From a virus, in IMG/VR virus record IMGVR_UViG_3300020463_000013, positions 14,387 through 78,386 of that record: a stretch of DNA of 64,000 nucleotides. One strand, 5' to 3'. The position numbers and the translations under genes were made by a program. Under the pieces are notes generated by a model. The model did not search any database. It had not been told where the DNA came from and was given only the letters and a program-made list of their open reading frames with translations. Shown in pieces: positions 25,907 through 57,108 of the stretch. How positions within the stretch are numbered: position 1 is the stretch's first letter; every line of letters starts with the position of its first letter.

Positions 25907-25912
25907 TATTTA
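25907..25912 (-). promoter_or_regulatory. Late promoter core TAAATA
   Basis: GATAAATA on the minus strand at the stop of the giant ORF, followed by an AGGA SD and ATG 25890. Confidence 0.5.
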
Positions 25913-31900: not shown

Positions 31901-34900
31901 TCTATAAATGTAAACTATTCCTTGATCTGCATCTTTTTCGTCATCATAAGGCGCACCAATAGCAATGCTCATTCCGTCACTAGATATAGAAACGCTATCT
32001 GCAAATCCTATAGTTTTATTAGGTGCTTCAATAAGTTGATCAAATTCAAAAAATCCGTTGTTAATTCTGTAGACAACAACACCATTTGGCTTATCTGCGT
32101 TATATGTCACACTTGCTAAAAATACATCACCGTTTGCATTAACATCAATTGTTTCCCCAAACACTCCTAATTCTTGTTGATCTAACACTGTGCTTCCGTC
32201 TGTGCTATCATTTATAACAGAGAACAATGTATCATTAGGTAAAAATCCTATGTAGTCAACTAGATCATTTGTGCTTGTCCAATTTGCACTATCAAAAACT
32301 CCTGCAGGTAAATTTGTACGTGCAACTAACAAATTACCACCTAGATATACAATATCGTTTTCTCTGTATGTTCTAGTTTCACTAAATTCGCCTTTAAATT
32401 TTTTATTCTTTGCAGAATCCCAATTAAAAGTAACATTATTTTCAATACCATTTTTATATTGATATACTTTACCATTAGCGCCTTCTTGTGATGCATACAC
32501 AAATAGCCTATATACGTCATTATTTTTTGCACCTTTAACAGTAGTGCCTAGGAATTGATTACTAGCTCTGTATTCGTTTATATAGTAACCTACAGCATCA
32601 TAGCTTCCTGAAGGCCTACGTTCAAATATACTAAACATTCCCTCATAAAGTCTTTCACTTAAATTATTTTCAGCCGCTTGATCCACCGGAATATTGTATA
32701 CTTCTTCCCAGTCATTGCTGTCAGGACCTGGTATGTTAGGTTGTCTTGGTATACCGCTTACTTCGGCACTATCGTAGAACCAATATTCTGCACCCAATAA
32801 TGTATCACTATCTTGTAAAGTAATATTGTTATCAGCTTTAAACACTATAAATTTACCAATTCCAAAAGGTGCATATTGAAAGCCAACTGAATCAATTTGA
32901 CCAAATACACGATTTGTTTGATAGATTGGATTTGCTCTACCAGCATCTCCTATAAATTCTATTTCGACGTTGTCTCCAAAATCATTACCTAAACTAAATG
33001 TACCTGTAGTGTTTTTAACAAAAATTGTTCCGTTAAGTCCGTCCCTTTGATAAAATACTACATCAGCTTCTGCACCTGTGCCTAAATCTTTTACACGTAG
33101 CACATCGCCGCCACCTAAAACTTGCGGTTCAAAAACATTGCCTAAACTATCAAATTTTGTAAAATTAAATTTAATATACCCATCCCAAACATCGTGTACA
33201 GTTTGTAGTTTATTTGTAATTGTTTGAGATAATCCTATATCTGTAATATTTTTATAACTACTATCAGACCAACGAGGTAATTGATCCATATATAAGTTTA
33301 TACTTTCACTAGGATTAATGTTATCAGTAAGCGATTTAGGTGCTTTTACTATATACAGATCGCTAGGAATAATACTAGTTACACCTCCTGCACCAGGTGC
33401 ACCTTGATTTGTTAATGTTTGAATAAAACTTCCGATTGAATTTTCACTGTTAATAGTACTATCATCGTCAACATCTAAAACATTAAAATATCTTCTGTTT
33501 TGATTAGTTTGTCCGCTAGGTGTAAAGTCTTCGTAAATTAAACCTCTGCCTCTATCTTCGCATGCACTTTCTGTTGGTCCTGTATTATACGCTTGTAAAC
33601 TATCTATTACCCAATAGCCGCCCCATTGTGCAGAATAATCAGATGCATCGTTATGTAATTTTTTTACATATTCACCAACAAAATCTCCGTTTCTTAAAAA
33701 CAAACTTCCTTCAGTTGGAAATGTTCCGTTCACGTCCTTGACATAAATTGTTACCCTAGCATCTTCGTTATATTTGTATGCTACTGTGCCTATTGCTCCT
33801 GATGTTTCAATTATATCTCCTATGACAGGAACATTTGTAGCCGCGTCAACATATAGAACAGCATCTACTTTATAAAGTATTTGGTGTTCACCTGTTAAGA
33901 ATTCGGTAGTAACAATTGGATTGTAAATACTGTTAAATGGAGCAATGTCTTGAATACTATTTTTATTTTGATAAGCATTAGATCTTTGATTCCATTTTAA
34001 ACTAATTGTATCTCCTACTTTTGATCCTTCATATTGGTTAAATGGTGCTCTTATAATTACGTGATCTGTAGCAGTGCTAGTAAATGGATAATTTCCTGAA
34101 GCAAGTACTACAGGAGCATCATCTGTTTCATCTGTCAAACCTAAAGCAATTCTAATCTGTGTCACACTTGTAAAACTATTAAAATCAATAGAATCTTCTG
34201 CACCTGTTATTCCTACATTTGCTCTCCATAAACTATTGTCATAGCTTACAATATCATTCTTTAAATAATTTGTTGTTGTAATAAATTCATCTTGATATCT
34301 TGTTTTGACTTTAGATGCAGACGGAGATCCTACGTAAATATATTTTCCGTCTTCACTTATATCTACACTTGCGCCAAATCTCTCGCCGTCCATAGCCGCA
34401 CCGGCTAATGGAATAAGTTCTGCTATAAGTATAAAATTATTACTTTCACTTGCTCTATTGTATACATTCACTTGTCCGTTGGCAAAATCTGGCATGCCTA
34501 CAGCAATTACAGTATTACGTTTGTTTACTGCAATACTACTTGCAAAATTTTGCAAGGCACTATCAGTGCCATTTTTATTTTCGATAGTCTGTGCCAAAGT
34601 ATAATTTCTTGCATTTTGCACAACTGACCATTTGTTGTCAGCACCAGAATCTATCCATAATATATCGCCGTCTTCTAAAGTACTTTGTGCTATAGTGTTA
34701 GCTTCGTCAACATTAGATGCACGTACTTTTACAAAATTTGTTACATAGCCTACTGTTTGTTCTATATCTTCTATATCTTCGTCACTAAGTAAGACTATCT
34801 TATCGCCAGTAACTTCTTTTACTTTGTAAAATCCTTCTATACCTTCAACGTCAAATATTCCTATTATGTCATCAGCTTTTACACCTGTATAAGTAGACTT

Positions 34901-37900
34901 TAGATTGACTGTAAATTCGTCTGTGCCTGACGTAATACTTGTAATTGTGTTATCTGTATTAGAATATTTGTATACACTCCAAGATAAATTATCAGTACCT
35001 ACCCAGACATAATCTCCCTGCCGTAAATTATCAAAATCTAAGTTTAAAATATCATCGTATGTTTGTGATATAACTTTTACATCTTCAAAATCAACATAAC
35101 CTGCATTTTTTACATAAGTTGAATCAACATACTTGGTTGGAAATGGAGCGTGATTATAATCATCACTTTTTTGATACACGTCATAAGGTGGTATTTTAAA
35201 AATTAAGTCTGTGCTTGCAGGATCAATTGAATTTACTAATTCAATTGGTTGCGGTGAAAGCCTAAATTTAGATTCGTCTAATGTATAATCAACTTCTTGG
35301 AAAGCATCAACAGCACCATACTGGCCGTCCTTGATAGCCCATTCTTCGTAAAATTCTAAACTATCTTTGTCTGCACTTGCCAAGGCATCAAACATTTTAC
35401 TTAAAGCATTTTTTGTACCTTTATCTTGTAACATGCCCTGGTAAAATTTGTATTGACTTACATCATCATTTACAATATTTTCTAAATACTTTCTTTTTTG
35501 ATAGCCAATTAAATGCTGTGCTAATCTTTGTTGTTCTACATCAAAATTATCGCTGTCTAAATCATAAAAATCTGTAAACTGTATAGCTTTGTAGTCCCAG
35601 TTTGAATACAATCCACCAATAGGCTTATCAGTCAATCTATTCCATTGATTGTCTATAAATGTTTCGGTTCCTGGAACTTTTTTATCTGCTGAATAATAAA
35701 ATTCTTTGTGCTTTACAATATCGCCAATATCATAATCGTTCCAAGGCATCCATTCAGTAATTTTTGCACCATCATAAAAGAATCCAGGTATACTTATACT
35801 ACCATTCCATTCATCTGTTCTATAACCTGCAACTTTTATTCTTTCCTGTCTGTAGCCAGGTTCTTGATCATAAATTACATCACCAAATACTGTTCTATTA
35901 TCTAGTAATACCACATGTTCTTTTTGTACTAATGGGAGAGTAGCCGCGTATATTCCGTCTGCTGTGTTTCTTGTTTGCATATAAAATTCATTTGGATTTT
36001 CTCTACCAATTGCTAAAAATTCTGAGTTTAATTTTTTTCCGTCTGCTTTTATTATGCTATAGCCGTATATTGTTTCGTATACATTAGATACAACGCTATA
36101 GTCACTTACAAATTTTAAGTACTGAGCTGCAGGAGATACCGTTAGAAGTGTTCCATTATCCCAGCGTTGTGTTGTCCAAAACATGAATTGTTTTGCACTA
36201 TATCTCCAATCTTGCACTACTGCTTCATTACCTTCATAGTTGTCAAACACAAAGCCTTGATTTTCTAACCAAGCACCATAGGAAACTAAAAAGTCTACTA
36301 CCTCCTGAATTGAATCAAAAGTAGTACCGTACGCAACTTCTTGTACAATATTTTTATTAAATAATTTTGCAAAACTAGCTCTTACGCCGCCATCCATAGG
36401 AAGTTCTGCTAATTTAGTAGTTTTATCTCCATCAAGAGTAGCGGCACTAGTATGAGATTCTGTTACTCTATAGTAAGCATTTTGAAACTCTACTATATAA
36501 CCTTTTTCATAATATTTGTCAGAAGCCCATTTTAAGAAATCTTCGCTTATTCCACCTACAGTAATAACTGGATCTTTTTGCTGTTTAATTACTGGGTGTG
36601 TTTTAAATGTTGCACTAGTATTACTGTAGCCTTTTACAGTATATCCGCCTATTACTTTTTCTATAATTACACCAGAATATGCAACAGTTTTTATAGGAGT
36701 GCTAGTGTTTAAAATAATTTGATAATTTTCTTCTGGAACAAATACGTTACCTTCATTTGTAGGACTTCTGCTGTCCAAAATTAATTTAAATTTTGCTTTT
36801 TCTGTAAAAGCTCCTAATTTAAATCCAATGTTATTTTGTATTGATGAAATATTGTTTTTGTAGTCAGCGTAACTTGTTGTCACGTCCAAGAACATGTAGT
36901 CAGCTATGTAGTTTACAAATCCGCTTGTGTATGTTTGTGTAGTATCTGTTACAGATGTAGGATACACAAGTTTATCTAATTCTAATTGTTTGCTAGTATC
37001 CTTATACACTATTATATCTGCAACGTCTCTAATTTGTCTTTGCCTATCAAATGCTGTAGCAAACATTCTCGAAGGAGCATTTAGAATTAAACTTGAAATA
37101 AGACTAAAAGCATACTCACTAGATCTGCGCCATGCAGATTCTACAGGTGCACCGTCGCCAAACTTAAAATTGTCTTCTATTCCTGTGCTAGTAAAACCAG
37201 TTGCATATCCACTAGCTAATGGACTTAAAAGTGCGCCATTTGCATCTGTAGGTATATGTTGTGTAAGATTGGGCCTTACGTATTTTTTAACAAATTTTGG
37301 AATTGTGTTAGGCTGTGCTATTTTGCCTTGTTCTATATCTTGCCACATTACTAAGTTATCACGGGTATATGGTGCAGGTCCGTAATTTGTTTCCCACCAA
37401 GTAGGTTTAACAGTAAAGCCTAACATTTCCCACGGATGGCTATGTGGGCGGTCTGTATCATATGCCATCATATATACTTGACGCCAGTAACCAGGCAAAA
37501 CTTTTCCTGTAGGACTTTGCATTGATTCATAGTTAAAAGAAAAAGTGTCAGATCTTACAAAATTATTTTTTGTATACTGCGTATCTGCAATACTTGTCCA
37601 TTCAATAAAATCAGTAAGCATGCCTTTATCTACTGCATCTTTAGGTGAATAGCTATCTCTTGCATCGCCTTCGACATAATCTGTTAGATCAAATATTGTT
37701 TCATCATAACTTATTTTTATGTTGTTGTATATACGTGTCTCTAGTTCAATTATGAGATTATCTCTAAAATCTCCATAGGCTTTTACAATACTACCATCGT
37801 GTCCTTGTATTACATCTACAGGTGTTCTGTATGTTGTATCTAAAAACTTTTCAGGCTGATATGCAGGATACAATCCTAATTTTGTAGGTGTAGCAGGTAC

Positions 37901-40813
37901 ATACGATCCATTTGTATTTTCATACTCGTAAATAGTTACAATATCGTCTTCAGCTTTAGTCGCTGTAATCACAGCAAAACCTTCGTCATTAAATGTATAA
38001 TCTTTTCCGTGTGTTAATTGAACACCATTCAGATATACTGTGACTGCTTTTTTATCTAAAACAGTTTTATCAAATGTCCTTGTCAACGCAAAAAATGTAT
38101 TGTTTACATCTTCTATTACATATCTTAATTCTTTTGATGCTCCTAGAGGCACCATATCACTAAAGAAAAACGGCTGTGTTTCAGTTTTACTTTTGTTTAT
38201 TTCTGCAAGAATTAGATCAACATGAGTCTTCACATCACCTTCAAATCCTAAAGTCTCTGCTACTTGAATAAATCTTCTCTTAAATTTTCCATACTCTTTT
38301 CTAGCAAACTTTATTGAATTAATTACATTACTTTCACTGTTTGTTAAATGATATAATGAATGGTTTATTAATCCGCTATGTTTTACAAATCTATTTCCAA
38401 ATTGACTAACTTGTCCTAAGTCACGTAAATTACTAGTGCCTGGAAATTGTCCTTCGAAATTATCTATTTCTTCTACAATAGTGCTTACATGATCATTAAC
38501 TTCTCCCAAAGTAAATTCTGTGACATTTTTGTTTAAAGGATTTCTTTCGAAGTTGATAGGAAATTCATATGTTCCATTATTATTTTTGCTTGTGCTAGAT
38601 TTTGTTTTTATAAGTATAACATCATCTACTGATAAACTTTTTGTAAAAACAATCTGTAATGTGTTATTGACGTCTTTAGTTGTTGTGAAATCTACACCCA
38701 TTTTTTGTATTGTGTTATTTTTATAGACACGTAACCATAAATCTGTTAAGGTTGCACTTGCATCATAATGATCTATATCAAATTCTGTTTGTGTACCATC
38801 ATATACATATTGACGTTCTACTTTTTGTGTACTTAAAGTATCTGCCTTTTTATATCCTGTAACAAATTTAAAATTATCTATTTCGCTAAATTTCTTTAAA
38901 AATGTTATGTCTGATTTTACATCTACTAAACTATTTTGTGTTTGGTAAGTAAATATTTGTCCTAGTAAATTAAAATCAAATAATATATCACCACTGTTAG
39001 TAATATTCCTGTATGATAATGGAAATCCTAATTCTGTGTCATTTGCTCCCGTTCCTTGTTTGTAGGAAAATAATTTGTTACCTGAAAAGTTGCTTGCATC
39101 ATAAACTGTTTTGTCGCCATAGCTTACGCCGTCTTTATCAAAAAGATCAAATAATGGACTTATATTCACATCAGTTTTATCTTGACCGTTTTTCCATTGT
39201 GTGCCATCAAAGTAAAACATTTTACCTTTGTATACATCGCCTTGCCTTACTAATACAGTTTCATTTAAAATAGGATCTGTATCTGTTTCATCTATTAAAG
39301 CAATTTGTGTAACACTGTTAAAGACAATAAATTTTACCTTAAATATTTTTCCGTATACACGCTCGTCTTGATCTCCTAAAAATAGTATTCTCATACCTTC
39401 TGAAAGATCAATATTATCTATATTATATCCTGTTGCGCCTTCAATTACGGATCTTACATCAGATGTAAAAATATCTACTAGATCTACATCTAACTTGTTC
39501 TTAGTACCAAAATCAAATAATTTTATACCTGCTTCAAATTCTATAATAGGCCTACTCGCTCTATTTGTTTGATTTACTTCAACAGGTTGATTGTTTATTG
39601 CGGCACTCTTTTCAATTACATCTCTATGAAACCATCTGTTATATCTGCTCCATAGGTTACCGTCTATAGCACTTCTATCTATAACCACATAATCTCTTGT
39701 TAAAGGATAACCAATACTTTGACCAAATGGTAATCTATCAAAAGCGCCGTCATCAAAAGGATTTGTTATATTTGCAGTAAAAGTTGTAGGTACATCCAAA
39801 GCATCTTCTTTTACAAGTTTTATTTTATCGCCGACGCCTTCAACATAATATTCACCCTCTGCATATGTACTTGGTGTTACATTACCAATAAAATAAATTT
39901 TCATTCCATTTGATAACTCAAACCCATTACCTGTTTTGTAAGTCTTTTTTCCTACTACTTCTGCATCAACATCAATTTTAGTTGCTTCTTCTATATTGTA
40001 TACTTCGATAACTCCACTACTACCTAAATCGTTATCGCTCATATAATAGATTACATCTGGTGTGCTTTGATCTAATTTAAATTCTATTATTCCTTTATCA
40101 GTTGCATCTGATGAATCTTGTATAATATTATAAGCTGAATCTTCTACACGCTTACTTCTAAATACTAAAGGCAAACCAGGTGCATCAACTTCAAACCTAT
40201 ATGTAATTCCTCTATATAGTTTCAATGTAGGATTAGGAGTTTTTCCGTCTGGTGAAAATATATACGATTTATTATCTAATGCATCTTGTGCAGTGACAGT
40301 GTAAGTGCTTACAACATCAATAGTCTGTCCTGCAACAGGCACACTTTGCGGTCCTGTAGGAAGCCAATAGTATTCTCTAAAATTAACAAACTTATCCCAA
40401 TTTACATGCGGATCCCAAGCATAATATTCTTGGGCATTTAGTTTATCATGATTAACATTTGCACCGTTAAAGTTTCCTATTTGATTTATATAATCGTTGT
40501 AATCTTTATAGTATGTTAAATTGCCTAATGTATCTTTAATTAAACTTGCTGGTTCAAATTGATAATCTTCTCTTTGTTTAGAAACATCACCGACATAATT
40601 ATCAGATGCTTGAAATGCATTTGTAATTTTTCTACCATAATACCCGTTAACTTTTTCAGCTACGCCAGGTTGAATCATTTGGTCAAATGTTGCACTTAAA
40701 AATTTTCTGTTAAATCTTGATCTAAAATATTTAGGTAAGTGATTTAAACTAGACCGTTTTATAGGATTTCCTGCAGGAAGTGCAGGATCATTTTGATTGT
40801 CATCGTAAGACAT
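25910..40813 (-). CDS. Giant (4967 aa) virion structural protein, baseplate wedge/fibre-like
   Basis: Uninterrupted 14.9-kb ORF directly after the gp6-like gene. Contains FG-GAP-like repeats (FGASVDISEDG, FADSVSISSDG, FGTAISYTGD), CBM5/12-like repeats (Y..GDIV...Y) and GDG..xFxL repeats. Confidence 0.8.
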   Translation of the reverse strand: MSYDDNQNDPALPAGNPIKRSSLNHLPKYFRSRFNRKFLSATFDQMIQPGVAEKVNGYYGRKITNAFQASDNYVGDVSKQREDYQFEPASLIKDTLGNLTYYKDYNDYINQIGNFNGANVNHDKLNAQEYYAWDPHVNWDKFVNFREYYWLPTGPQSVPVAGQTIDVVSTYTVTAQDALDNKSYIFSPDGKTPNPTLKLYRGITYRFEVDAPGLPLVFRSKRVEDSAYNIIQDSSDATDKGIIEFKLDQSTPDVIYYMSDNDLGSSGVIEVYNIEEATKIDVDAEVVGKKTYKTGNGFELSNGMKIYFIGNVTPSTYAEGEYYVEGVGDKIKLVKEDALDVPTTFTANITNPFDDGAFDRLPFGQSIGYPLTRDYVVIDRSAIDGNLWSRYNRWFHRDVIEKSAAINNQPVEVNQTNRASRPIIEFEAGIKLFDFGTKNKLDVDLVDIFTSDVRSVIEGATGYNIDNIDLSEGMRILFLGDQDERVYGKIFKVKFIVFNSVTQIALIDETDTDPILNETVLVRQGDVYKGKMFYFDGTQWKNGQDKTDVNISPLFDLFDKDGVSYGDKTVYDASNFSGNKLFSYKQGTGANDTELGFPLSYRNITNSGDILFDFNLLGQIFTYQTQNSLVDVKSDITFLKKFSEIDNFKFVTGYKKADTLSTQKVERQYVYDGTQTEFDIDHYDASATLTDLWLRVYKNNTIQKMGVDFTTTKDVNNTLQIVFTKSLSVDDVILIKTKSSTSKNNNGTYEFPINFERNPLNKNVTEFTLGEVNDHVSTIVEEIDNFEGQFPGTSNLRDLGQVSQFGNRFVKHSGLINHSLYHLTNSESNVINSIKFARKEYGKFKRRFIQVAETLGFEGDVKTHVDLILAEINKSKTETQPFFFSDMVPLGASKELRYVIEDVNNTFFALTRTFDKTVLDKKAVTVYLNGVQLTHGKDYTFNDEGFAVITATKAEDDIVTIYEYENTNGSYVPATPTKLGLYPAYQPEKFLDTTYRTPVDVIQGHDGSIVKAYGDFRDNLIIELETRIYNNIKISYDETIFDLTDYVEGDARDSYSPKDAVDKGMLTDFIEWTSIADTQYTKNNFVRSDTFSFNYESMQSPTGKVLPGYWRQVYMMAYDTDRPHSHPWEMLGFTVKPTWWETNYGPAPYTRDNLVMWQDIEQGKIAQPNTIPKFVKKYVRPNLTQHIPTDANGALLSPLASGYATGFTSTGIEDNFKFGDGAPVESAWRRSSEYAFSLISSLILNAPSRMFATAFDRQRQIRDVADIIVYKDTSKQLELDKLVYPTSVTDTTQTYTSGFVNYIADYMFLDVTTSYADYKNNISSIQNNIGFKLGAFTEKAKFKLILDSRSPTNEGNVFVPEENYQIILNTSTPIKTVAYSGVIIEKVIGGYTVKGYSNTSATFKTHPVIKQQKDPVITVGGISEDFLKWASDKYYEKGYIVEFQNAYYRVTESHTSAATLDGDKTTKLAELPMDGGVRASFAKLFNKNIVQEVAYGTTFDSIQEVVDFLVSYGAWLENQGFVFDNYEGNEAVVQDWRYSAKQFMFWTTQRWDNGTLLTVSPAAQYLKFVSDYSVVSNVYETIYGYSIIKADGKKLNSEFLAIGRENPNEFYMQTRNTADGIYAATLPLVQKEHVVLLDNRTVFGDVIYDQEPGYRQERIKVAGYRTDEWNGSISIPGFFYDGAKITEWMPWNDYDIGDIVKHKEFYYSADKKVPGTETFIDNQWNRLTDKPIGGLYSNWDYKAIQFTDFYDLDSDNFDVEQQRLAQHLIGYQKRKYLENIVNDDVSQYKFYQGMLQDKGTKNALSKMFDALASADKDSLEFYEEWAIKDGQYGAVDAFQEVDYTLDESKFRLSPQPIELVNSIDPASTDLIFKIPPYDVYQKSDDYNHAPFPTKYVDSTYVKNAGYVDFEDVKVISQTYDDILNLDFDNLRQGDYVWVGTDNLSWSVYKYSNTDNTITSITSGTDEFTVNLKSTYTGVKADDIIGIFDVEGIEGFYKVKEVTGDKIVLLSDEDIEDIEQTVGYVTNFVKVRASNVDEANTIAQSTLEDGDILWIDSGADNKWSVVQNARNYTLAQTIENKNGTDSALQNFASSIAVNKRNTVIAVGMPDFANGQVNVYNRASESNNFILIAELIPLAGAAMDGERFGASVDISEDGKYIYVGSPSASKVKTRYQDEFITTTNYLKNDIVSYDNSLWRANVGITGAEDSIDFNSFTSVTQIRIALGLTDETDDAPVVLASGNYPFTSTATDHVIIRAPFNQYEGSKVGDTISLKWNQRSNAYQNKNSIQDIAPFNSIYNPIVTTEFLTGEHQILYKVDAVLYVDAATNVPVIGDIIETSGAIGTVAYKYNEDARVTIYVKDVNGTFPTEGSLFLRNGDFVGEYVKKLHNDASDYSAQWGGYWVIDSLQAYNTGPTESACEDRGRGLIYEDFTPSGQTNQNRRYFNVLDVDDDSTINSENSIGSFIQTLTNQGAPGAGGVTSIIPSDLYIVKAPKSLTDNINPSESINLYMDQLPRWSDSSYKNITDIGLSQTITNKLQTVHDVWDGYIKFNFTKFDSLGNVFEPQVLGGGDVLRVKDLGTGAEADVVFYQRDGLNGTIFVKNTTGTFSLGNDFGDNVEIEFIGDAGRANPIYQTNRVFGQIDSVGFQYAPFGIGKFIVFKADNNITLQDSDTLLGAEYWFYDSAEVSGIPRQPNIPGPDSNDWEEVYNIPVDQAAENNLSERLYEGMFSIFERRPSGSYDAVGYYINEYRASNQFLGTTVKGAKNNDVYRLFVYASQEGANGKVYQYKNGIENNVTFNWDSAKNKKFKGEFSETRTYRENDIVYLGGNLLVARTNLPAGVFDSANWTSTNDLVDYIGFLPNDTLFSVINDSTDGSTVLDQQELGVFGETIDVNANGDVFLASVTYNADKPNGVVVYRINNGFFEFDQLIEAPNKTIGFADSVSISSDGMSIAIGAPYDDEKDADQGIVYIYRQVQGKFELDQKLYSPKNERAEQFGTAISYTGDILAIGSKNADSIFESTIDVYSQKKEGSTYVNDPTSQPTGLPTTFDNSFTKFRRTNVDDGVVYVYENLNGKLLYADTIQFNNANVDYFGRNVEATGNHVYVGLPRLETGGQVGAFVDYRVQGNVYNNIRTPKDPVDVAKIKKVILYNKKTKKLLAYLDYIDVLQGKIAGVAEQELRYKTYYDPATYTTGTNVVVQKLNTWGQEQVGQLWWDLTNAKFLNPYQNDITYSTNNWNKLFSGASIDVYEWVETTLTPEQWNEQADTNDGLSQGISGQAKTTTNYVTKKVYDSISQSFTDKYFYWIKDKKTIPNNDFRTESAFNTAQLIADPYSYGYRYVSFFGNNQFAVNNCDTLIEGKEVAISVQYYTLENQDSNVHNQYQILTDGLASSKPNRDIERKWFDSLIGYDTRNRPVPDNTLGAKKKYGILNNPRQSLFVNNIEAMKQLIERVNGVLKENLIVENKNLTGLNYKEDFPSAITRLYDTTVESFAEIDLIGVAKSKQAILTPVIENGKIVRVTITDPGRGYLVAPTYTIRGASGEGADFTFTIDNAGQVTNVVVNNQGENYEDTTTIEVRKFAALVKADETINGKWSIYERLTETSTWNRIKSQAYNATLYWEYADWYMSGASETTEIDHLVDFSYQLTELNDNIGDVVKISSIGSGGWLLLQKIDEQSTTDYTVNYKTIGRQNGTIQFKRGLYDVTANLNGFDTISFDVQFYDAQPTVEQRRILEVLRDDLLTVELEHEYNKLFFASVRYAFSEQPYIDWAFKTSFVKAQHNVGSLREDITFNNDNLPSYEDYLEEVKPFKTKLREYLSSYERIEPTNTVITDFDLAPRYVEGRGIQPHPSQVIEDMIVGTESDITTYPYRHWLDNASYEIKSVNIYDGGTKYSEPPVISAVGGGGTGAKFKTYLGVNGKIVKIDVLDSGSGYISAPTLDINGSNPGGIDARISAVIGHETVRSFLTRVKFDRISSSFIITKLNESENFIGSGSKYIYDLKWPIDVKPANIKITVGGVELLPSQYTYTNFQDNTKTYVRFKGRITLDTPPANTKAIVIEYKKDPDLLVAQDRVNLLYDPTTGMLGKDIAQVMDGVDYGGVEVKSFGFENQGGFDAEGWFTGKWDTYDETYEDEVFNFDGSTTIIEVSKPLENGVEYNVYKNNIRIDDPNYDGSTFIENPNAIMETLVGDGITKILYLDNYGIKVADGDTLVIRKKTSDGSFLADPNGYDTLIEGGDLPYSTATGLKAEDISVDGDGFVTPTTSKGPEEIIPGQVLDTVDIQVYERPTGGASNIRSFNYVGDGTNKTFSLDQNVAFNNNIFVKVGDVIKTKDDYIFSTDRKSIIMDVAPGANIKVNIITLDVSGTNVLDYGTFVADGSTLDFLTNVRYADNMTHYATIDGEKQDTLLIKSDDSSYDVPGNVVIRFATPPIADKIINFGIFEGTTKNFSSVQIDEFIGDGSSIAFTLQTTPFSATPSQHNTIVKVNNTILSAGYSQHFDVTDIREYRLDLWQVPLGAFNHQDLLVYLNDIELTYGEQWNFVSAGEFDSTIRDENDIDPATGEPRVILDQQSGSTVTLLPGVGKDGDTLRVYAIKDGQYAYGYWDSAGEFASTPGTIYMDNVYESSDIITVYTFTNNKSQGIERQEFDVVERTKLTVGSENWYQLRHLRNGLIELRKPATDAQYVWVAKNGVLLSPSIDYYITDNKKYLKIAYDLSENDTIDIIHFAETPLIQKFGWRQFKDILNRTHYKRLTGKEDILLVRDLYPWDKTIEVENGDKLPQPGANPDTPSVIFIEGERIEYFVRDKNILKQIRRATLGTGAKDVYKEGTEVYHQGTDQNMPYKDETITLTLDGDGTSTQFQLDWTPNSVNEFEVFVAGKRMRKNSISSYQFETVDGNGNTVSAPQMDSPEGDVTLAPEFTISGTTLTLAEPAPENTKVIIIRKQGRIWTDPGTQLSKAKGNIARFLRNSTTDLPR

Positions 40814-51340: not shown

Positions 51341-52171
51341 ATGGCAAGACGAGTAAACTATCTAAACAATAGAGACATACTAGCAGAAATACATAAATCA
51401 AAAAGTACTTTTTGTAGCTTTGTAGGAGACGAAGATCATAGATTTGATATTATACTTCCTACTATAGAAAAAATAAATATAAGAACAATAGCAGAAGCAA
51501 AAAGAAATAAAGCAAAAAGGTTAGCACTACATGCTTACGAATCAGCAAAAGCAGAAGGACGTAAAGTAAAACAAGCAGAGTTTGAAATCGATTATAGAAA
51601 AATTGATAAAACAGATGTAGTTTTTAGAGTTATGTCATTTGAACACATACCTGAAGAACCAGGACGTAAAAAGAATCCTAAAACTGTAGCTGACACAAGA
51701 GTAAAACTAAACTTCCCCCCATTTCAACATTACAGATTCAACGAAAATGATGAACTAATTTGCGTAGGCAAATCGCATTGGCAAGGTGGTATGGAAAACG
51801 GTTACTTTAACTTAGCACACGGAAAAGCAACAAACAAACTTGCTATGATGTGGATGAAACTTTGCGATAGATATGCGACACGCGGAAATGTGCGTGGCTA
51901 CACATATAATGATGAAATGCGAGGACAAGCAATATTACAACTAGCACAGATAGGACTACAATTCGATGAATCAAAATCAAACAACCCTTTTGCTTATTAC
52001 ACCGCTGCTGTTACTAATAGTTTTGTACGTGTTATAAATTTAGAAAAACGTAATCAAAATATTAGAGACGATATTCTTGAAATGAACGACATGAATCCTA
52101 GTTATACTAGACAACATGCAGGTGAATGGGAAGCGGCTGTAAAAAGAGAACAAGAGATGTCAAAAAAGTAG
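51341..52171 (+). CDS. gp55: Late-transcription sigma factor, T4 gp55-like
   Basis: NYLNN.DIL.EI, N.RGYTYNDEMRGQA, FDESKS.NPFAYYT...NSF.R..N.EK; adjacent to gp47/gp46 as in T4-like phages. Confidence 0.85.
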   Translation: MARRVNYLNNRDILAEIHKSKSTFCSFVGDEDHRFDIILPTIEKINIRTIAEAKRNKAKRLALHAYESAKAEGRKVKQAEFEIDYRKIDKTDVVFRVMSFEHIPEEPGRKKNPKTVADTRVKLNFPPFQHYRFNENDELICVGKSHWQGGMENGYFNLAHGKATNKLAMMWMKLCDRYATRGNVRGYTYNDEMRGQAILQLAQIGLQFDESKSNNPFAYYTAAVTNSFVRVINLEKRNQNIRDDILEMNDMNPSYTRQHAGEWEAAVKREQEMSKK

Positions 52172-52226: not shown

Positions 52227-53237
52227 TTGTTTAAAAAAGCGGCTGTCTTTACAGATATTCATTTCGGACTTAAAGGCAACTCAAAAGTACACAACGAAGA
52301 CTGCGAACGTTTTATTGACTGGTATATTGCACAGGCAAAGCAAAACGGATGCGAAACAGGCATATTCTGCGGCGATTGGCATCATAATCGTAATAGTCTT
52401 AACTTGACTACAATGGATGTAACCATTCGTTGTATGGAAAAAGTTGGAGAAGCATTTGAAAATTTTTACTTCTTTGACGGCAATCACGATTTATATTACA
52501 AAGATAGACGTGATATAAACTCTACTGCGTTTAGTAAGTATATTCCAGGTATAACATTTATTGATGAGATTACAACTATCGATGACGTAACACTTGTTCC
52601 TTGGTTAATTGGCGACGAATGGAAAAAGATTTCTAAAATTAAGAGCAAGTATATGTTCGGTCATTTTGAACTTCCTAGTTTCTATATGAATGCTATGGTG
52701 CAGATGCCAGACACAGGCGAATTACAAGCATCTCATTTTGAACACCAAGAATATGTTTTTTCAGGACATTTTCATAAACGCCAAAAACAAGGAAAAGTAC
52801 ACTACATCGGAAATGCACTACCACACAATTATGCAGATGCTTGGGACGATAATCGTGGAATGATGATATTAGATAGAGAAAATAATGCTGAGCCAGTTTA
52901 TCTTGATTGGCCTGATTGTCCCAAATATCGTACAACTACTTTAAGTAAACTGCTTGATCCGGACGCGAATATAATTAAACCTAATATGTATTTGCGTGTT
53001 ACACTCGACTTGCCTATTTCATATGAAGAAGCACAGTTTATAAAAGAAACATACATTAATAATCATCAGTGTAGAGAAATTACACTTATTCCGCAAAAAC
53101 AAATTGAAGAAATTTCAACTGAACTAGACATAAGCAAATTTGAATCAGTTGACGAAATTGTAAGTAAAGAAATATCTGCAATTGACAGCGATAATTTTAA
53201 CAAAAAAATGCTATTGGACATCTATAACGAACTATGA
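52227..53237 (+). CDS. gp47: Recombination nuclease, Mre11/SbcD-like (T4 gp47)
   Basis: TDIHFG, GDWHH, GNHD, GHFE, SGHFHK metallophosphoesterase motifs; TTG start with SD. Confidence 0.92.
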   Translation: MFKKAAVFTDIHFGLKGNSKVHNEDCERFIDWYIAQAKQNGCETGIFCGDWHHNRNSLNLTTMDVTIRCMEKVGEAFENFYFFDGNHDLYYKDRRDINSTAFSKYIPGITFIDEITTIDDVTLVPWLIGDEWKKISKIKSKYMFGHFELPSFYMNAMVQMPDTGELQASHFEHQEYVFSGHFHKRQKQGKVHYIGNALPHNYADAWDDNRGMMILDRENNAEPVYLDWPDCPKYRTTTLSKLLDPDANIIKPNMYLRVTLDLPISYEEAQFIKETYINNHQCREITLIPQKQIEEISTELDISKFESVDEIVSKEISAIDSDNFNKKMLLDIYNEL

Positions 53238-55006
53238 TAAAAGTAAAAGATTTAACAGTAAAAAACTTTATGAGTGTTGGTAATCAAACGCAGGCTGTTG
53301 ATTTCAACAAAGAGCAACTAACACTCGTGCTTGGTGAAAATCTCGATCAAGGAGGTGACGATTCTGGTTCACGAAACGGTACAGGTAAGACAACTATTAT
53401 CAATGCACTGTCATATGCCCTGTACGGCCAAGCACTGACCAACATCAAACGGAATAATCTTATAAACAAGACTAATTCTAAAGGTATGTTGGTCACCCTA
53501 CACTTCGAAAAGGATAATCAAGACTACAGGATTGAGCGAGGACGCTCTCCTAATGTACTCAAGTTCTATATCGATAATCAAGAACAAGAGCTCCTTGACG
53601 AATCACAAGGCGACAGCCGAAAAACACAAGAATACATCAATGGCTTGTTAGGTATGAGTCATGATATGTTCAAACACATTGTTGCTCTTAACACATATAC
53701 AGAACCGTTTTTAAGCATGAGACAAAATGATCAACGTGCTATCATCGAACAACTATTAGGTATAACTATCCTATCAGAAAAAGCCGAAAGTCTTAAAGAT
53801 CAAATAAAACAAACAAAAGATGCAACAACACAAGAAACTCTTAAAATTGAAGCAATACAAACTGCGAATAGTAAAATTGAAACAACTATAAACAGTCTTA
53901 AAAATAATCAACGTGCTTGGCAAGCTAAAAAAGTAAAAGATATAGAAAAACTACAACGTAGTATAGACGAATTAGTACGTGTTGACATTGAAAAAGAATT
54001 AGAAGCACATGAAAAATTACAAAATTGGACTGAACTAAACAATGCAATTACGGCTCTTAATAAAGAAAAAGGCACATTAGAGAGTGCATTACTACGTGCT
54101 ACCAAGTCTGTAGATAAGGTAGAAAAAGACATCGCAAATTTACAGGATGCTGTGTGTTATGCATGTGGACAAGAACTACAAGAAGATAAAAAACAAGAAA
54201 TTGTGTCAAATAAAAATAAAGAATTAAACGATGCAATGGCATATCAAACAGAAGTAGCTGGTAAGTTAGACGAGATTATTAGAGGATTAAATGACATTGG
54301 TGATATAAACGGAAGACCAGAAACATTTTATGAAACAATAAGAGAAGCATATGACCATAGAAATAACCTTGAAGGTTTGCGTACAAATTTAAACAATAAA
54401 GAACAAGAAAATGATCCGTATCAGTCACAGATAGATGAGTTGTCAACAACTGCTATGCAAGAACTAGATTGGACTCCTGTAAATGATTTAACAAATTACA
54501 AAGATCATCAAGAATTTTTACTTAAACTTCTTACTAACAAAGATTCGTTTATACGTAAAAAAATTATTGATCAAAATCTTACATACCTAAACAATAGATT
54601 GACTTATTATCTTGACAAGCTAGGATTACCACATCAAGTTTTATTCCAAAACGATTTAAATGTAGAAATTACACAATTAGGACAAGATTTAGACTTTGAT
54701 AATTTAAGCAGAGGAGAACGTAATAGGCTGATACTTGGTATGAGCTTTGCATTCCGAGATGTATGGGAAAGCCTATATCAGAATGTTAACTTGTTGTTTA
54801 TTGATGAGTTAATTGATAGCGGAATGGATACAGCAGGTGTTGAAAGTTCACTTGCTGTTATTAAGAAGATGGGCAGAGAGAGGGACAAAAATGTATTCCT
54901 TATTTCACATAAGGATGAACTTATAGGCAGAGTCAATCATTTGATGAAAGTTGTAAAAGAAAATGGCTTTACATCTTATGAAAACGACATAGAGATAGTA
55001 GAATGA
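53234..55006 (+). CDS. gp46: Recombination ATPase, Rad50/SbcC-like (T4 gp46)
   Basis: KNFMSVGN, Walker A NGTGKTT, coiled coil with CYAC zinc hook, LSRGE signature, LFIDE, ISH. Confidence 0.93.
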   Translation: MIKVKDLTVKNFMSVGNQTQAVDFNKEQLTLVLGENLDQGGDDSGSRNGTGKTTIINALSYALYGQALTNIKRNNLINKTNSKGMLVTLHFEKDNQDYRIERGRSPNVLKFYIDNQEQELLDESQGDSRKTQEYINGLLGMSHDMFKHIVALNTYTEPFLSMRQNDQRAIIEQLLGITILSEKAESLKDQIKQTKDATTQETLKIEAIQTANSKIETTINSLKNNQRAWQAKKVKDIEKLQRSIDELVRVDIEKELEAHEKLQNWTELNNAITALNKEKGTLESALLRATKSVDKVEKDIANLQDAVCYACGQELQEDKKQEIVSNKNKELNDAMAYQTEVAGKLDEIIRGLNDIGDINGRPETFYETIREAYDHRNNLEGLRTNLNNKEQENDPYQSQIDELSTTAMQELDWTPVNDLTNYKDHQEFLLKLLTNKDSFIRKKIIDQNLTYLNNRLTYYLDKLGLPHQVLFQNDLNVEITQLGQDLDFDNLSRGERNRLILGMSFAFRDVWESLYQNVNLLFIDELIDSGMDTAGVESSLAVIKKMGRERDKNVFLISHKDELIGRVNHLMKVVKENGFTSYENDIEIVE

Positions 55007-55221
55007 GTATAGAAGATGATATACACGATAAGTTGACTAAGGCTTATATGCAGTATTTCAAGGCTAACGAAAAATTTGAAAGCCGTAATTCTGTACGCAC
55101 ACACAGAGAAGCAAGGCGCTGGTTAAGAGAAATCCGCACACTTGCTAAGTTGCGTATGGATGAAATACACATGAAGCATAATACAAGTCGTGTAACCAAA
55201 AAAGAAGGCGAAGAAGGCTAA
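55003..55221 (+). CDS. Small basic helical protein (Hc1-like?)
   Basis: 72 aa, ATGA overlap with gp46, Arg-rich NSVRTHREARRWL. Confidence 0.55.
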   Translation: MSIEDDIHDKLTKAYMQYFKANEKFESRNSVRTHREARRWLREIRTLAKLRMDEIHMKHNTSRVTKKEGEEG

Positions 55222-55239
55222 GCATCGGTATATAAGTTC

Positions 55240-55665
55240 ATGCAGTGGACTTATAACGGTAAAGTAATAGACTCTATATCTGAAGAGTATGAAGGGTTTG
55301 TGTACCTTATTACCAACACCACTACCGGGCAAAAATATGTAGGCAAAAAACTAGCAAAGTTTAAAACTACCAAGCCACCATTAAAAGGCAAAAAAAATAA
55401 AAGACGAGGCTACAAAGAAAGTGACTGGCAGGACTACTGGGGTAGTTCTGAAAGATTACAGGCAGATGTAGATAAGTTAGGCCCAAAAAAATTCACAAGG
55501 GAAATACTTTATTTTTGCAAAAGCAGAGCAGAAATGAGTTACATAGAGGCTAGAGAACAATTTGACCGCCGTGTGTTAGAGACGGATGATTATTACAACG
55601 GAATTATAAATGTTAGAGTTGGCGGTTCAGATAAGTTGCGTAAGGCACTACTAGAAAACAAATAG
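55240..55665 (+). CDS. Stand-alone GIY-YIG endonuclease (T4 endonuclease II/Seg-like)
   Basis: GFVYLITN-x6-YVGKK, YWGSS, F.REIL, conserved Glu (YIEAREQ), YYN. Confidence 0.85.
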   Translation: MQWTYNGKVIDSISEEYEGFVYLITNTTTGQKYVGKKLAKFKTTKPPLKGKKNKRRGYKESDWQDYWGSSERLQADVDKLGPKKFTREILYFCKSRAEMSYIEAREQFDRRVLETDDYYNGIINVRVGGSDKLRKALLENK

Positions 55666-55945
55666 GCAAATCAGGACACTGTTGATCGTATGATCCGCTT
55701 TGAGACTGCGTACTGCGCCGTCAGATACTAGCGAGTCCAACAGGCTGTATGCTACGAAAACCCTAAGCAATAGGAACGAAGCTAGGGATAGCACATTATT
55801 GTGTGATGTCGACGTAGGTTGGGAAAGGTCAGAGCCCAGTAGCATAGTCAAACACCTACTTCCGATCTCGGCTGTGCAAACTCACATGAAGCTTGAGGTA
55901 GATGGAACCGCTGTTAGGTTCCGTCTGACTGAAACAATCTACATG
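55666..55945 (+). ncRNA. Putative structured non-coding RNA with pseudoknot (family unrecognised)
   Basis: About 49% GC by hand count over 55681-55920 in an AT-rich genome, with many complementary segments including crossing helices 55748-55/55839-46 and 55814-19/55854-59. Strand inferred from the upstream gene. Confidence 0.65.
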
Positions 55946-55950
55946 AAACG

Positions 55951-56028
55951 TAAGTGCTTCGCACTTATTATTAGACGAAGTAACTAGTTTGAGCGTAAGC
56001 GAAAACTAATTGCTACGAAGTAGCAATT
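55951..56028. repeat. Three consecutive inverted repeats with GAA/TTC/GTAA loops
   Basis: TAAGTGC-TTC-GCACTTA (55951-67); TAGTTT..GC-GTAA-GC..AAACTA (55985-56008); AATTGCTAC-GAA-GTAGCAATT (56008-28). Confidence 0.8.
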
Positions 56029-56029
56029 G

Positions 56030-56035
56030 ATAAAT
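56030..56035 (+). promoter_or_regulatory. Late promoter core TAAATA
   Basis: GATAAATA right after the last hairpin; AAGGA SD before ATG 56059. Confidence 0.55.
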
Positions 56036-56058
56036 ATATTCATAATAAGGATTATAAG

Positions 56059-57108
56059 ATGTTTGTGAGTGAAATATTAAAAGAAGCAGAATACAAAGTA
56101 TCAGTAACTGGTACTGGTAGAAGCAAAAGTTTTAATGTTATAAATGTAGATACTGGTGACACTGTTGGCAGACATAGAAATCGTGCTATGGCGCAAAATC
56201 AAATGAAAAGTTTGTCGCCAAAAGCATTAAGTCCTGCAGACAAACTTAAAAACATAGCAAACCAACAAGGGCAAAATGTTGATAGATCAAAAGGCACACG
56301 TGCCGCAGACAAATATCTTGACAAAAAGGGTATTGAAAAACCTGACGCAAATCCTAAAGCTGATGTTGATGCTAAACCTGATAAATTAAAAACACCAAAA
56401 TCTGGATTTCTTGCAAGGACTGGAAGCAAGTTAAAAGCAGTTGGCGCGGCTATAGGCGGTAGAGGAGCCGGGCTTATACTTTTTCTATTTGTTGGTGCTG
56501 ATCAATTTTTTAGAGATTTGCAAGTATTTGCTAAAGTATATGAAAAAGAAGGTTGCGTAAAAGGTACTCCTAATGTAAACAAAGCACAGGTTAGATTTGC
56601 TGATAGACTGACTAGCAATATTATGGCTACTCTAACAGCTATTGTAGCAACAGGCGTAGCAATGGCAATGGTAAAAAAGATACTTATGGTTTTAAGAGCA
56701 GGTGCATTGTTTGCAGGTCCAGTAGGTTGGATTGGATATTTGATCACTTGGGTAGGTGCAGAAGCAGCAATTTATGCAGTGATAAAAATGTTAGAAGCGA
56801 AATGGTTTCATGCGGCATTGTCAGACTTTCTTATGAAATCTACTTTTACACAAAGAAGCCTTGTTGATTTTTGTGTTACTTTTAGATACATTACAAAGGA
56901 TAGTAGTTGTTATTCTAAGGTGCCAGGATTTATACGCAAGGAAAGTCTTGAAGTAGAAAACTTTCAAGAACCAATTTTTGAAACTGTAACTAAATCTGAA
57001 ATTAAAACAGGAATCAAAGATATAATTATGAATGACCCTAAAATGCTTGCACTTATGAAAAAAGCCAAACGCAACAAAGCCAAAGGCATTAAAGCAGGGG
57101 CATCTTAG
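56059..57108 (+). CDS. Late protein with hydrophobic segments, possibly a head-internal protein
   Basis: Late promoter, basic N-half, hydrophobic stretches (GAGLILFLFVGA; MATLTAIVATGVAMAMV; GPVGWIGYLITWVGAEAAIYAVI). Confidence 0.6.
   Translation: MFVSEILKEAEYKVSVTGTGRSKSFNVINVDTGDTVGRHRNRAMAQNQMKSLSPKALSPADKLKNIANQQGQNVDRSKGTRAADKYLDKKGIEKPDANPKADVDAKPDKLKTPKSGFLARTGSKLKAVGAAIGGRGAGLILFLFVGADQFFRDLQVFAKVYEKEGCVKGTPNVNKAQVRFADRLTSNIMATLTAIVATGVAMAMVKKILMVLRAGALFAGPVGWIGYLITWVGAEAAIYAVIKMLEAKWFHAALSDFLMKSTFTQRSLVDFCVTFRYITKDSSCYSKVPGFIRKESLEVENFQEPIFETVTKSEIKTGIKDIIMNDPKMLALMKKAKRNKAKGIKAGAS

What the first reader, a model, noticed from the sequence alone, without database searches (positions are those of the whole stretch)
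55666..55945. Unrecognised ~280-nt structured, pseudoknotted non-coding element
Seen: this is the only long non-coding gap in a tightly packed window. It is about 49% GC (hand count 117/240 over 55681-55920) against an AT-rich background. Helices: CTGTTG/CAACAG (55679-84/55738-43) enclosing CGCT/AGCG; TATGCTAC/GTAGCATA (55748-55/55839-46) enclosing CCCTA-AGC/GCTAGGG, GCACA/TGTGT and TGGG/CCCA; GTAGGT/ACCTAC (55814-19/55854-59), which crosses the previous helix and so forms a pseudoknot; CCG-ATCT-CGG; TGTG/CACA; AGATGGAACC/GGTTCCGTCT (55900-09/55917-26), with an alternative GTAGAT/ATCTAC pairing. Inference: a large folded RNA (ribozyme, guide/scaffold RNA or switch) that I cannot assign to tRNA, tmRNA, RNase P or a canonical group I intron.
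Basis: partly seen in the sequence, partly recalled or inferred. Interest (0 to 1): 0.85.

Follow-up and report, generated by a model that had tools for sequence, protein, structure and literature searches.

The report
Twin-box pseudoknotted RNA of marine phages
The gene-free stretch after a small nuclease gene of this uncultured marine T4-like phage encodes a real, knotted, roughly 360-base non-coding RNA of an uncatalogued family that carries the same short variable word twice; what the RNA does is still unknown.

Summary
Window 55666-56058 is the one long gene-free gap, is G+C-richer than its surroundings, and encodes a structured RNA on the + strand. More than 250 relatives were collected from viral and metagenome contigs. 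The RNA is longer than reported, about 55669-56028. ORF 55700-55987 is not conserved, so this is not a protein gene.

Rfam 15 and ARAGORN give no match, and blastn of three copies against 50,697 phage records finds nothing.

The oddest feature is a 7-11 nt word present twice (55884-90 and 55941-47, ACATGAA), flanking a conserved hairpin. The word differs widely between lineages but is almost always identical in both copies, and no complement lies nearby.

In T4-like phages the RNA always follows a domain-only GIY-YIG gene. A second phage group carries it beside terminase genes with no GIY-YIG in the DNA held, and cultured phages carry GIY-YIG homologues without it.

Earlier agents of this scan found the same family on other genomes. 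Function is unresolved. My best guess is a trans-acting RNA that presents two identical address words to an outside partner.

The parts
55240..55665 (+). SegE-type GIY-YIG gene (141 aa, catalytic domain only). It is the habitual upstream neighbour of the RNA in T4-like phages and is context, not part of the RNA.
   Evidence: Pfam PF19835 at E 9e-33. It lies directly upstream on the same strand in 112 of 114 informative loci.
55669..55743 (+). 5' domain. Closing helix GGAC 55674-77 with GTCC 55735-38; helix CGCT 55696-99 with AGCG 55730-33; small hairpins at 55684-95 and 55703-21.
   Evidence: GGAC/GTCC becomes GAAC/GTTC, and CGCT/AGCG becomes CACC/GGTG and CTCC/GGAG, in the window's subgroup.
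55743..55755 (+). H1 5' strand (GGCT..TATGCTAC). It pairs with 55839-55849.
   Evidence: Over 40 distinct compensated strand pairs. Own-partner duplexes average -11.0 kcal/mol against -6.8 for swapped partners.
55761..55787 (+). Hairpin A. Stem CCCTA-GC/GCTAGGG with a conserved 12-nt loop, AATAGGAACGAA.
   Evidence: Changes on both sides in 6 of 7 pairs. The loop is nearly invariant.
55791..55804 (+). Hairpin B (GCACA/TGTGT), the variable-length arm.
   Evidence: Relatives carry hairpins of roughly 10 to 90 nt here.
55805..55819 (+). Invariant joiner GATGTCGAC plus the H2 5' strand GTAGGT (55814-19).
   Evidence: H2 is paired in 79 of 79 sequences, with a U-A to C-G double change in 4 sequences.
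55820..55838 (+). Hairpin C. TGGG/CCCA with the conserved loop AAAGGTCAGAG.
   Evidence: 98% paired. The loop is invariant in T4-like copies and differs in the second phage group.
55839..55849 (+). H1 3' strand (GTAGCATAGTC).
55850..55863 (+). Joiner AAAC, the H2 3' strand ACCTAC (55854-59, which closes the pseudoknot), and TTCC.
55865..55899 (+). H3. ATCTCGG (55865-71) pairs with CTTGAGGT (55892-99) and encloses box 1.
   Evidence: The strands covary: AATCT/AGATT, GTCT/AGAC, TCTTGG/TCAAGA. C.A mismatches are frequent, and own-partner duplexes are only slightly better than swapped ones (-7.4 against -6.1 kcal/mol), so support is moderate.
55884..55890 (+). Twin box 1 (ACATGAA).
   Evidence: Identical to box 2 in nearly all members, although the word varies between lineages.
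55900..55926 (+). H4 hairpin. AGATGGAACC / GGTTCCGTCT with a 7-nt loop.
   Evidence: 97% paired, with U-G, C-G, U-A, G-U and A-U at one pair.
55927..55940 (+). Nearly invariant single strand GACTGAAACAATCT.
55941..55947 (+). Twin box 2 (ACATGAA).
   Evidence: Its strongest covarying column is the matching column of box 1.
55951..55967 (+). Hairpin E (TAAGTGC-TTC-GCACTTA), a variable arm.
   Evidence: Variable hairpins sit at this place in relatives. Conserved sequence continues beyond it, so it is not the end of the RNA.
55985..56008 (+). Hairpin F. TAGTTT/AAACTA stem, tandem G.A pairs, and GC-GTAA-GC.
   Evidence: The stem covaries: AGTTTG/CAAAACT, ACTTTG/AAAGT, TGTTTG/AAACA, GTGTTTG/AAACAC. 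The inner C-G becomes T-A in 2 sequences.
56008..56028 (+). Terminal hairpin AATTGCTAC-GAA-GTAGCAATT. Probable 3' end, just before a late-promoter-like ATAAATAT.
   Evidence: Stem listed. Its role as the 3' end is an inference.

Best explanation
Shown: window 55669-56028 (+) is the gene of a stable, non-coding, multi-domain RNA of about 360 nt. It belongs to a family that no catalogue holds. The fold is a 5' domain, a core closed by a pseudoknot (H1 crossing H2), and a 3' arm. In the 3' arm two copies of one short variable word, the twin boxes, flank a conserved hairpin (H4) and an invariant single strand.

Inferred: in T4-like phages it is probably transcribed together with, or just behind, the GIY-YIG gene. 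It most likely acts in trans. The folded core would serve as a scaffold that displays the two identical boxes. These would bind two copies of, or two sites on, one outside partner, most likely a nucleic acid encoded elsewhere in the phage or in the host (a sponge, decoy or guide-like role). The word would drift as that partner drifts, and both copies would have to follow.
For: - It is an RNA. Relatives show invariant blocks, variable hairpins and compensatory changes. G-U pairs fit only the + strand.
- It is not coding. Spacings between conserved blocks fall in all three residues mod 3, and the ORF frame is open in only 2 of 79 sequences.
- It is uncatalogued. Rfam gives nothing, ARAGORN nothing, and blastn of three copies against 50,697 phage records nothing.
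- It is independent of the nuclease. L121, L129, L248, L253, L269, L286 and the metagenome copies lie beside terminase genes with no GIY-YIG in the locus. GIY-YIG homologues in Melnitz and in cyanophages have no such RNA downstream.
- The twin boxes change together. The words seen are ACATGAA, ACGTGAA, ACATGAT, ACATGAG, GCATAAA, ACATAAA, GCATGAA, GTATGAA, ACAGAAAG, ACAGAATG, AAACTCATG, ACATCAAG, GTATCAAGTC, ATCATCAAGT and AAATGAAGTG, each present in both copies.
- L173 and L114 are almost identical over the roughly 170-nt conserved core from H2 to box 2. The only point changes outside hairpin loops and linkers are the same G-to-A change in both boxes.
- The strongest covarying partner of each variable box column is the matching column of the other box. 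No third column stands out. No complement of the word lies within 1.5 kb or within the held loci. This points to a partner outside the RNA.
Against: - No partner has been found, so the trans-pairing step is inference only.
- The boxes sit inside longer imperfect direct repeats. A dimeric protein, or an internal processing role, would explain the identity of the two copies equally well.
- Expression rests on contigs from two RNA libraries of one study. These could contain DNA, and they show neither ends nor strand.
- A few members differ between the boxes at word position 6 or 7: L021 and L199, L049 and L149.
- The strict adjacency to GIY-YIG in T4-like phages, which holds for two RNA subfamilies, hints at a link that this reading leaves unexplained.
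Confidence: 0.4

Rival explanations
1. The RNA is the working partner of the neighbouring GIY-YIG nuclease. The nuclease has a catalytic domain only and no DNA-binding extension. On this reading the twin boxes address it to a nucleic-acid target, or the RNA is a regulatory 3' UTR of the nuclease mRNA.
For: The nuclease gene lies directly upstream on the same strand in 112 of 114 informative T4-like loci. A sister RNA with a different core but the same twin-box module follows the same gene in the nine loci that lack family 1. The protein is 141 aa and matches only the catalytic-domain model. It is 83-97% identical across phages whose gp46 is 56-100% identical over the aligned parts.
Against: The RNA occurs in a second phage group with no GIY-YIG in 8-15 kb of held DNA. 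Homologues of the nuclease in Melnitz, ACG-2014d and S-SRM01 have no such RNA downstream. No RNA-guided GIY-YIG enzyme is known (own knowledge). The RNA gene itself carries the box sequence, so a DNA guide would target its own locus.
Confidence: 0.15
2. The RNA processes itself, or is processed, at the two boxes. The boxes would be two equivalent cleavage or ligation sites that release, or splice out, the 57-nt H4 module. That could happen through a ribozyme core or through a sequence-specific host or phage endoribonuclease, by analogy with type III antitoxin RNA precursors.
For: Two identical words flank a highly conserved hairpin at a near-constant spacing of 51-60 nt. The long invariant single strands and the pseudoknot resemble a catalytic core.
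Against: No internal guide covaries with the boxes. There is no match to any ribozyme family in Rfam. Only the boxes are repeated, with no tandem array. No read-end data could be obtained because the runs are held as contigs.
Confidence: 0.15
3. The boxes are specifier-like sites that bind the anticodon loops of two molecules of one tRNA. On this reading word positions 3-5 form a codon and the invariant A follows it, as in T-box leaders.
For: Word position 6 is A in every word of the T4-like group and of the groups that align with it. Positions 3-5 read AUG, GUG, AUA, AUC or AGA. The complement of most words has U at the place of tRNA position 33 and a purine at position 37 (reasoned).
Against: tRNAs that read A-starting codons carry a modified A37, not the G that the common word would need (own knowledge). 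The flanking word positions also change in concert, which codon reading does not explain. The words AAATGAAGTG, ACAGAATG and AAACTCATG break the position-2 or position-6 rule or do not align to it. There is no T-box match in Rfam and no tRNA gene in the window.
Confidence: 0.06
4. It is a diverged member of a known large RNA class: group I intron, RNase P RNA, tmRNA, or GOLLD/ROOL-type RNA.
For: The order of strands H1 5', H2 5', H1 3', H2 3' with an A-rich joiner after H1 recalls P3/P7 of group I introns. GGGAAAGGTC recalls the RNase P P4 region. Related phages carry two-piece tmRNA genes (PMC9004378).
Against: Rfam models of all these classes give nothing, even at E up to 10 with lax filters. 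ARAGORN finds nothing. A hairpin sits between H2 5' and H1 3', and nothing sits where P8 should be. There are no flanking exons: the flanking genes are complete and the downstream gene varies between relatives.
Confidence: 0.03
5. The conserved signal acts at DNA level (an origin, a recombination site or a nuclease target with two direct repeats), or ORF 55700-55987 is a small protein gene.
For: The boxes are direct repeats. Stable GNA-loop mini-hairpins lie at 55951-56028, as noted by another first-stage reading.
Against: G-U pairs make the helices strand-specific. Covariation preserves pairing, not sequence. Block spacing and frequent stops exclude coding.
Confidence: 0.03

Closest known systems
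Large phage- and bacteria-associated RNAs of unknown function (GOLLD, ROOL; Rfam; cryo-EM in bioRxiv 10.1101/2024.12.08.627333)
   Same: A long, ornate, pseudoknotted non-coding RNA, often phage-borne, recognised only by comparative analysis and with no known job.
   Different: No sequence or structure match to either. It is half their size or less. The twin-box module has no counterpart in them as far as I know.
T4 SegB and other free-standing GIY-YIG (Seg) endonuclease genes beside stable-RNA genes (the T4 tRNA / RNA C and D cluster)
   Same: A small free-standing GIY-YIG gene sits next to a stable-RNA gene in a T4-type genome. The RNA and the nuclease can each occur alone.
   Different: The neighbouring RNA here is not a tRNA. 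The nuclease is conserved in place across hundreds of phages rather than sporadic. That comparison rests on my own knowledge of T4 and on an earlier agent's note.
Group I intron core (P3/P7 pseudoknot)
   Same: Two crossing helices, an A-rich joiner after the first strand, two hairpins in between, and a GIY-YIG gene nearby.
   Different: No Rfam match. The extra hairpin is on the wrong side of the crossing. There is no P8 and there are no exons.
Candidate structured RNAs of IMG/VR viruses (DNAVirus_N models, PMC10690425)
   Same: The same data source and the same kind of evidence (covariation in intergenic regions of uncultured viruses). Pieces of this RNA may be among those models.
   Different: Those models are 29-151 nt long, and none is described as this element. 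I could not compare sequences.

Membership tests
Group I intron | Match to the family covariance model (Rfam Intron_gpI) | tested here: not met
   No match at gathering score, nor at E up to 10 on 55500-56200.
Group I intron | P3/P7 pseudoknot with P8 between P3 3' and P7 3' and no hairpin between P7 5' and P3 3' | tested here: not met
   The crossing helices exist. However, hairpin C lies between H2 5' and H1 3', and only about 4 nt (7-11 in relatives) lie between H1 3' and H2 3'.
Group I intron | Interrupts a gene whose exons join into one product | tested here: not met
   The upstream genes end with their own stops. The downstream gene has its own start and differs between relatives.
tmRNA (one-piece or two-piece) | tRNA-like domain and tag reading frame found by ARAGORN or Rfam tmRNA models | tested here: not met
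   ARAGORN finds none in the window. There is no Rfam tmRNA match.
RNase P RNA | Match to Rfam RNase P models (conserved regions CR-I to CR-V) | tested here: not met
   No match, even at E up to 10.
Guide RNA of a neighbouring nuclease (OMEGA/CRISPR-like) | RNA and nuclease gene always occur together | tested here: not met
   The RNA occurs without GIY-YIG in a second phage group. GIY-YIG occurs without the RNA in cultured phages.
Guide RNA of a neighbouring nuclease (OMEGA/CRISPR-like) | A variable guide segment that matches a target | tested here: inconclusive
   Variable words exist (the twin boxes), but no matching target was found near the locus.
Type III antitoxin RNA (ToxI-like) | Tandem array of 34-36 nt repeats next to an endoribonuclease toxin gene | tested here: not met
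   No tandem repeat. Only the short boxes recur.
T-box leader | Match to the Rfam T-box model and position in the leader of an aminoacyl-tRNA-related gene | tested here: not met
   No Rfam match. The downstream genes are phage structural genes or unknowns, and a late-promoter-like site lies in between.
Protein-coding gene (ORF 55700-55987) | Reading frame kept in relatives | tested here: not met
   The frame is open in 2 of 79. Spacings between conserved blocks fall in all residues mod 3.

The most novel reading that the evidence does not exclude
A new class of programmable phage RNA. A conserved knotted scaffold displays one freely evolving 7-11 nt address twice, and through it recognises a nucleic-acid target. 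In T4-like phages the scaffold may recruit the adjacent GIY-YIG nuclease, which has a catalytic domain only. That would be the first RNA-addressed GIY-YIG enzyme.
Probability: 0.1. Interest if true: 0.92.

Novelty: categorically new. Interest (0 to 1): 0.7.

Why it matters
Large natural RNAs with intricate folds are rare, and almost every one studied so far has turned out to be a ribozyme, a ligand sensor or a ribonucleoprotein core. This one is abundant in uncultured marine phages of at least two unrelated types. Around this locus it is the only stretch that still aligns at DNA level with a distant relative.

It also has a feature I know from no described RNA family. One short word occurs twice and drifts freely between lineages, yet the two copies stay identical. 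That behaviour is what one expects of an address or guide sequence. Finding the partner could reveal a new way for phages to target host or rival nucleic acids, and possibly a new programmable tool.

The family is not new to this scan. Earlier agents reported it on other genomes. This window adds the second phage group in more variety, the sister RNA family, and the wider spectrum of box words.

Tried and rejected
- Rfam at gathering scores on the window and on 12 relatives, and at E up to 10 on the region: only chance-level matches (snoR21, cow-rumen-4, RAGATH-7, all far below their thresholds).
- ARAGORN: nothing.
- blastn of three versions of the RNA against 50,697 phage records: nothing.
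- Search for a complement of the box word within 1.5 kb in 141 loci and within whole held loci: none.
- Mutual information between box columns and all other columns: only the other box stands out.
- A second twin site, ACATGAAGACACATGAA, at window 15985-16001, and similar sites in two other contigs. They lie in unrelated coding genes, and reversed-pattern controls hit about as often, so this is chance.
- A TTCATG to TTTATG change in gp46 that parallels the box change in L173. It is a synonymous Phe codon change, so chance.
- Whole-contig comparison with G001 (113 kb, box word ACATGAT) to look for an orthologous covarying target. Of the 15 box-word sites tested, only the three around the RNA locus align at DNA level, so the test gave no information.
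- Pairing of the hairpin C loop (GGTCAG) with CTGACT at 55927-32. It fits in T4-like copies, but the loop is different in the second phage group, so I do not claim it.
- Laying metatranscriptome contigs. Two runs of one study cover 55000-56055 and nothing beyond. Contigs show no ends or strand, and DNA carry-over is possible, so this is a hint only. The part without cover is not evidence.
- Promoter and terminator scans: only weak consensus matches. The terminator-like calls fall on the - strand of symmetric hairpins.
- Literature: no paper found that describes this RNA.

Full report
**Setting.** The window is part of a 78-kb IMG/VR virus record estimated at 22% complete. The genes around the finding are T4-type:
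- late sigma factor gp55 (51341-52171)
- gp47 and gp46 (52227-55006)
- a 72-aa ORF
- a 141-aa protein that matches only the SegE-type GIY-YIG catalytic domain (55240-55665, E 9e-33)
- the gap
- a 349-aa unknown, a baseplate hub protein, and portal gp20

The nearest cultured relative of the GIY-YIG protein is Methylophilales phage Melnitz, at 64% identity.

**The observation.** The 393-nt gap 55666-56058 is the only long gene-free stretch nearby. Its G+C reaches 0.49 against roughly 0.3-0.4 around it. The + strand folds better than shuffled sequence (z -2.6). The - strand does not (z -1.1).

**Relatives.** The GIY-YIG protein has more than 599 close relatives in IMG/VR, and the best 80 loci were kept. 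Nearly all of them show the same gene order, gp47, gp46, 72-aa ORF, GIY-YIG. The sequence after the gene is conserved at 72-95% nucleotide identity wherever the contig runs on.

An 18-base pattern from the core (17 specified bases) found at least 120 more viral loci, and all of them carry the whole element. In bacterial and archaeal genomes the same pattern hit at about chance level. Only three MAG contigs hold the real element, and these are probably phage DNA binned by mistake. Two further patterns brought in diverged members from viral and metagenome contigs.

**It is an RNA, on the + strand.** Alignments of 30 and 79 non-redundant copies show long invariant single-stranded blocks. Between these lie hairpins whose length and sequence vary freely but whose pairing is kept. 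Helix by helix:
- H1 (window 55743-55 with 55839-49) exists in more than 40 different compensated versions. Each sequence's own strands pair at -11.0 kcal/mol on average, against -6.8 for strands swapped between sequences.
- H2 (GTAGGT 55814-19 with ACCTAC 55854-59) crosses H1. It is paired in 79 of 79 sequences. Four sequences carry a U-A to C-G double change and four carry a G-U.
- Hairpin A, hairpin C and H4 are 83%, 98% and 97% paired, with changes on both sides.
- For the whole set of helices tested, none of 500 shuffles reached the observed values, and sliding the partner columns halves the pairing.
- H3 and the 3' hairpin F also covary. So do two helices of the 5' domain.
- The many G-U pairs would be A-C mismatches on the other strand.

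The region is not coding. Distances between conserved blocks fall in all three classes mod 3, and the frame of ORF 55700-55987 is open in only 2 of 79 relatives.

**Extent.** Conservation starts at the stop codon of the GIY-YIG gene and runs through hairpin F (55985-56008) to a terminal hairpin (56008-56028). A late-promoter-like ATAAATAT follows just after. The RNA is therefore about 360 nt, some 80 nt longer at the 3' end than the finding states.

**Not a known family.** Rfam 15 (4227 models) gives no match at curated thresholds for the window or for 12 relatives. At E up to 10 it gives only three chance-level matches. ARAGORN finds no tRNA or tmRNA. blastn of three copies against 50,697 phage records finds nothing.

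The order of the crossing strands recalls P3/P7 of group I introns. However, the extra hairpin lies on the wrong side, nothing stands where P8 should be, and there are no exons. I found no paper that describes the element. The large IMG/VR catalogue of candidate RNAs holds only models of 29-151 nt.

**The twin boxes.** I took this lead from earlier notes of this scan and tested it here. The word ACATGAA occurs at 55884-90 and again at 55941-47. Across relatives the word varies:
- In the T4-like group it reads ACGTGAA, ACATGAT, ACATGAG, GCATAAA, ACATAAA, GCATGAA or GTATGAA.
- In the second phage group it reads ACAGAAAG, ACAGAATG, AAACTCATG, ACATCAAG, GTATCAAGTC, ATCATCAAGT or AAATGAAGTG.

In nearly every RNA the two copies are the same. 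L173 and L114 are almost identical over the roughly 170-nt core from H2 to box 2. There, the only point changes outside hairpin loops and linkers are the same G-to-A change in both boxes.

The best covarying partner of each variable box column is the matching column of the other box, and no third column stands out. No complement of the word lies within 1.5 kb or in the held loci. The copies therefore do not pair with each other or with another part of the RNA. Something outside the RNA, or a requirement for identity as such, holds them together.

In the T4-like group and the groups that align with it, position 6 of the word is always A and position 4 is almost always U.

**Relation to the nuclease.** In T4-like phages the GIY-YIG gene lies directly upstream in 112 of 114 informative loci. 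The nine GIY-YIG loci that lack this RNA carry a sister RNA instead. It has a different core but the same ACTC-word ... ATCT-word module and the same 3' hairpin.

Against a strict partnership stand two facts:
- A second group of small phages carries the RNA just upstream of its packaging genes, with no GIY-YIG gene in up to 15 kb of held DNA. Its small-terminase-like protein is distantly related to those of Phage DSL-LC06 and Pelagibacter phage HTVC112P.
- GIY-YIG homologues in Melnitz and two cyanophages have no such RNA behind them.

**Expression.** Contigs assembled from two metatranscriptome runs of one study cover the nuclease gene and the RNA up to about 56055. Contigs give no ends or strand, and such libraries can contain DNA. 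This is a hint, not proof.

**Reading.** What is shown is a real, conserved, pseudoknotted non-coding RNA of an uncatalogued family. It is shared by at least two kinds of uncultured marine phage and has a twin-word module under concerted constraint.

What is inferred is the mechanism. I think it most likely acts in trans, with a folded scaffold that presents two identical address words to one outside partner (confidence about 0.4 for the whole statement). The rivals are listed with their odds: partner of the nuclease, processing at the two boxes, binding of two tRNAs, a diverged known class, and a DNA-level signal.

**Prior work in this scan.** The same family was already reported by earlier agents on other genomes, with the same verdict of unknown function. 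This report agrees with them. It adds a wider range of box words, the sister family, and several failed searches for the partner.

Noticed in passing
L014, L015, L057, L063, L064, L067, L068, L079, L082 (the 450-520 nt after the GIY-YIG stop): A sister RNA follows the same GIY-YIG gene where the family described here is absent. Its core is different (for example the hairpin TTCGTCCGGCAACGGGCGAA). It has the same ACTC-word ... ATCT-word twin module, with words ACATGAT, AGATGAT, AGATAAT and GAATAAT, and the same TTGAGCG-NNA-GCGAAAAC 3' hairpin. In L057 the two boxes sit inside imperfect direct repeats of about 34 nt that also share ATTGTGAC.
   Followed up: partly
L006, L019, L026, L046, L055, L061, L070, L077 and others (contig ends): Many IMG/VR contigs stop 129-147 nt after the GIY-YIG stop codon, which is where the highly conserved RNA core begins. 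Others stop inside the core. The RNA is probably so alike between co-occurring phages that it breaks metagenome assemblies.
   Followed up: partly
window 55776-55781, 55975-55980, 56015-56020: The word ACGAAG occurs three times: in the loop of hairpin A, before hairpin F, and in the terminal hairpin loop. In L121 the longer GGAACGAAGT of loop A recurs in the 3' region. This may be a repeated protein-binding word.
   Followed up: no
window 55750-55758 and 56011-56019; 55838-55844 and 56019-56025: In this window the terminal hairpin is built from the same words as the two strands of H1 (TGCTACGAA and AGTAGCA). It could therefore compete with H1. Relatives do not show a consistent version of this.
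   Followed up: partly
L204 (MAG Crocinitomicaceae, 72.8-kb contig); L235 and L241 (MAG Neomarinimicrobiota RS350, 335-kb and 153-kb contigs): Three contigs filed under bacterial MAGs carry the full RNA. They are probably phage genomes binned with bacteria. The 335-kb one would fit the jumbo genome size implied by the 22% completeness estimate for the 78-kb record.
   Followed up: no
window 25910-40813 (-): A single open reading frame of 4967 aa, followed by one of 1197 aa, sits among tail and baseplate-type genes.
   Followed up: no
window 55000-56060 compared with G001 (113-kb relative): Of 15 sites tested across the window, only the three around the RNA locus (55169, 55884 and 55941) align at DNA level with this relative, at 77-79% identity. 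Around this locus the RNA is more conserved in nucleotide sequence than the protein-coding sites tested.
   Followed up: partly
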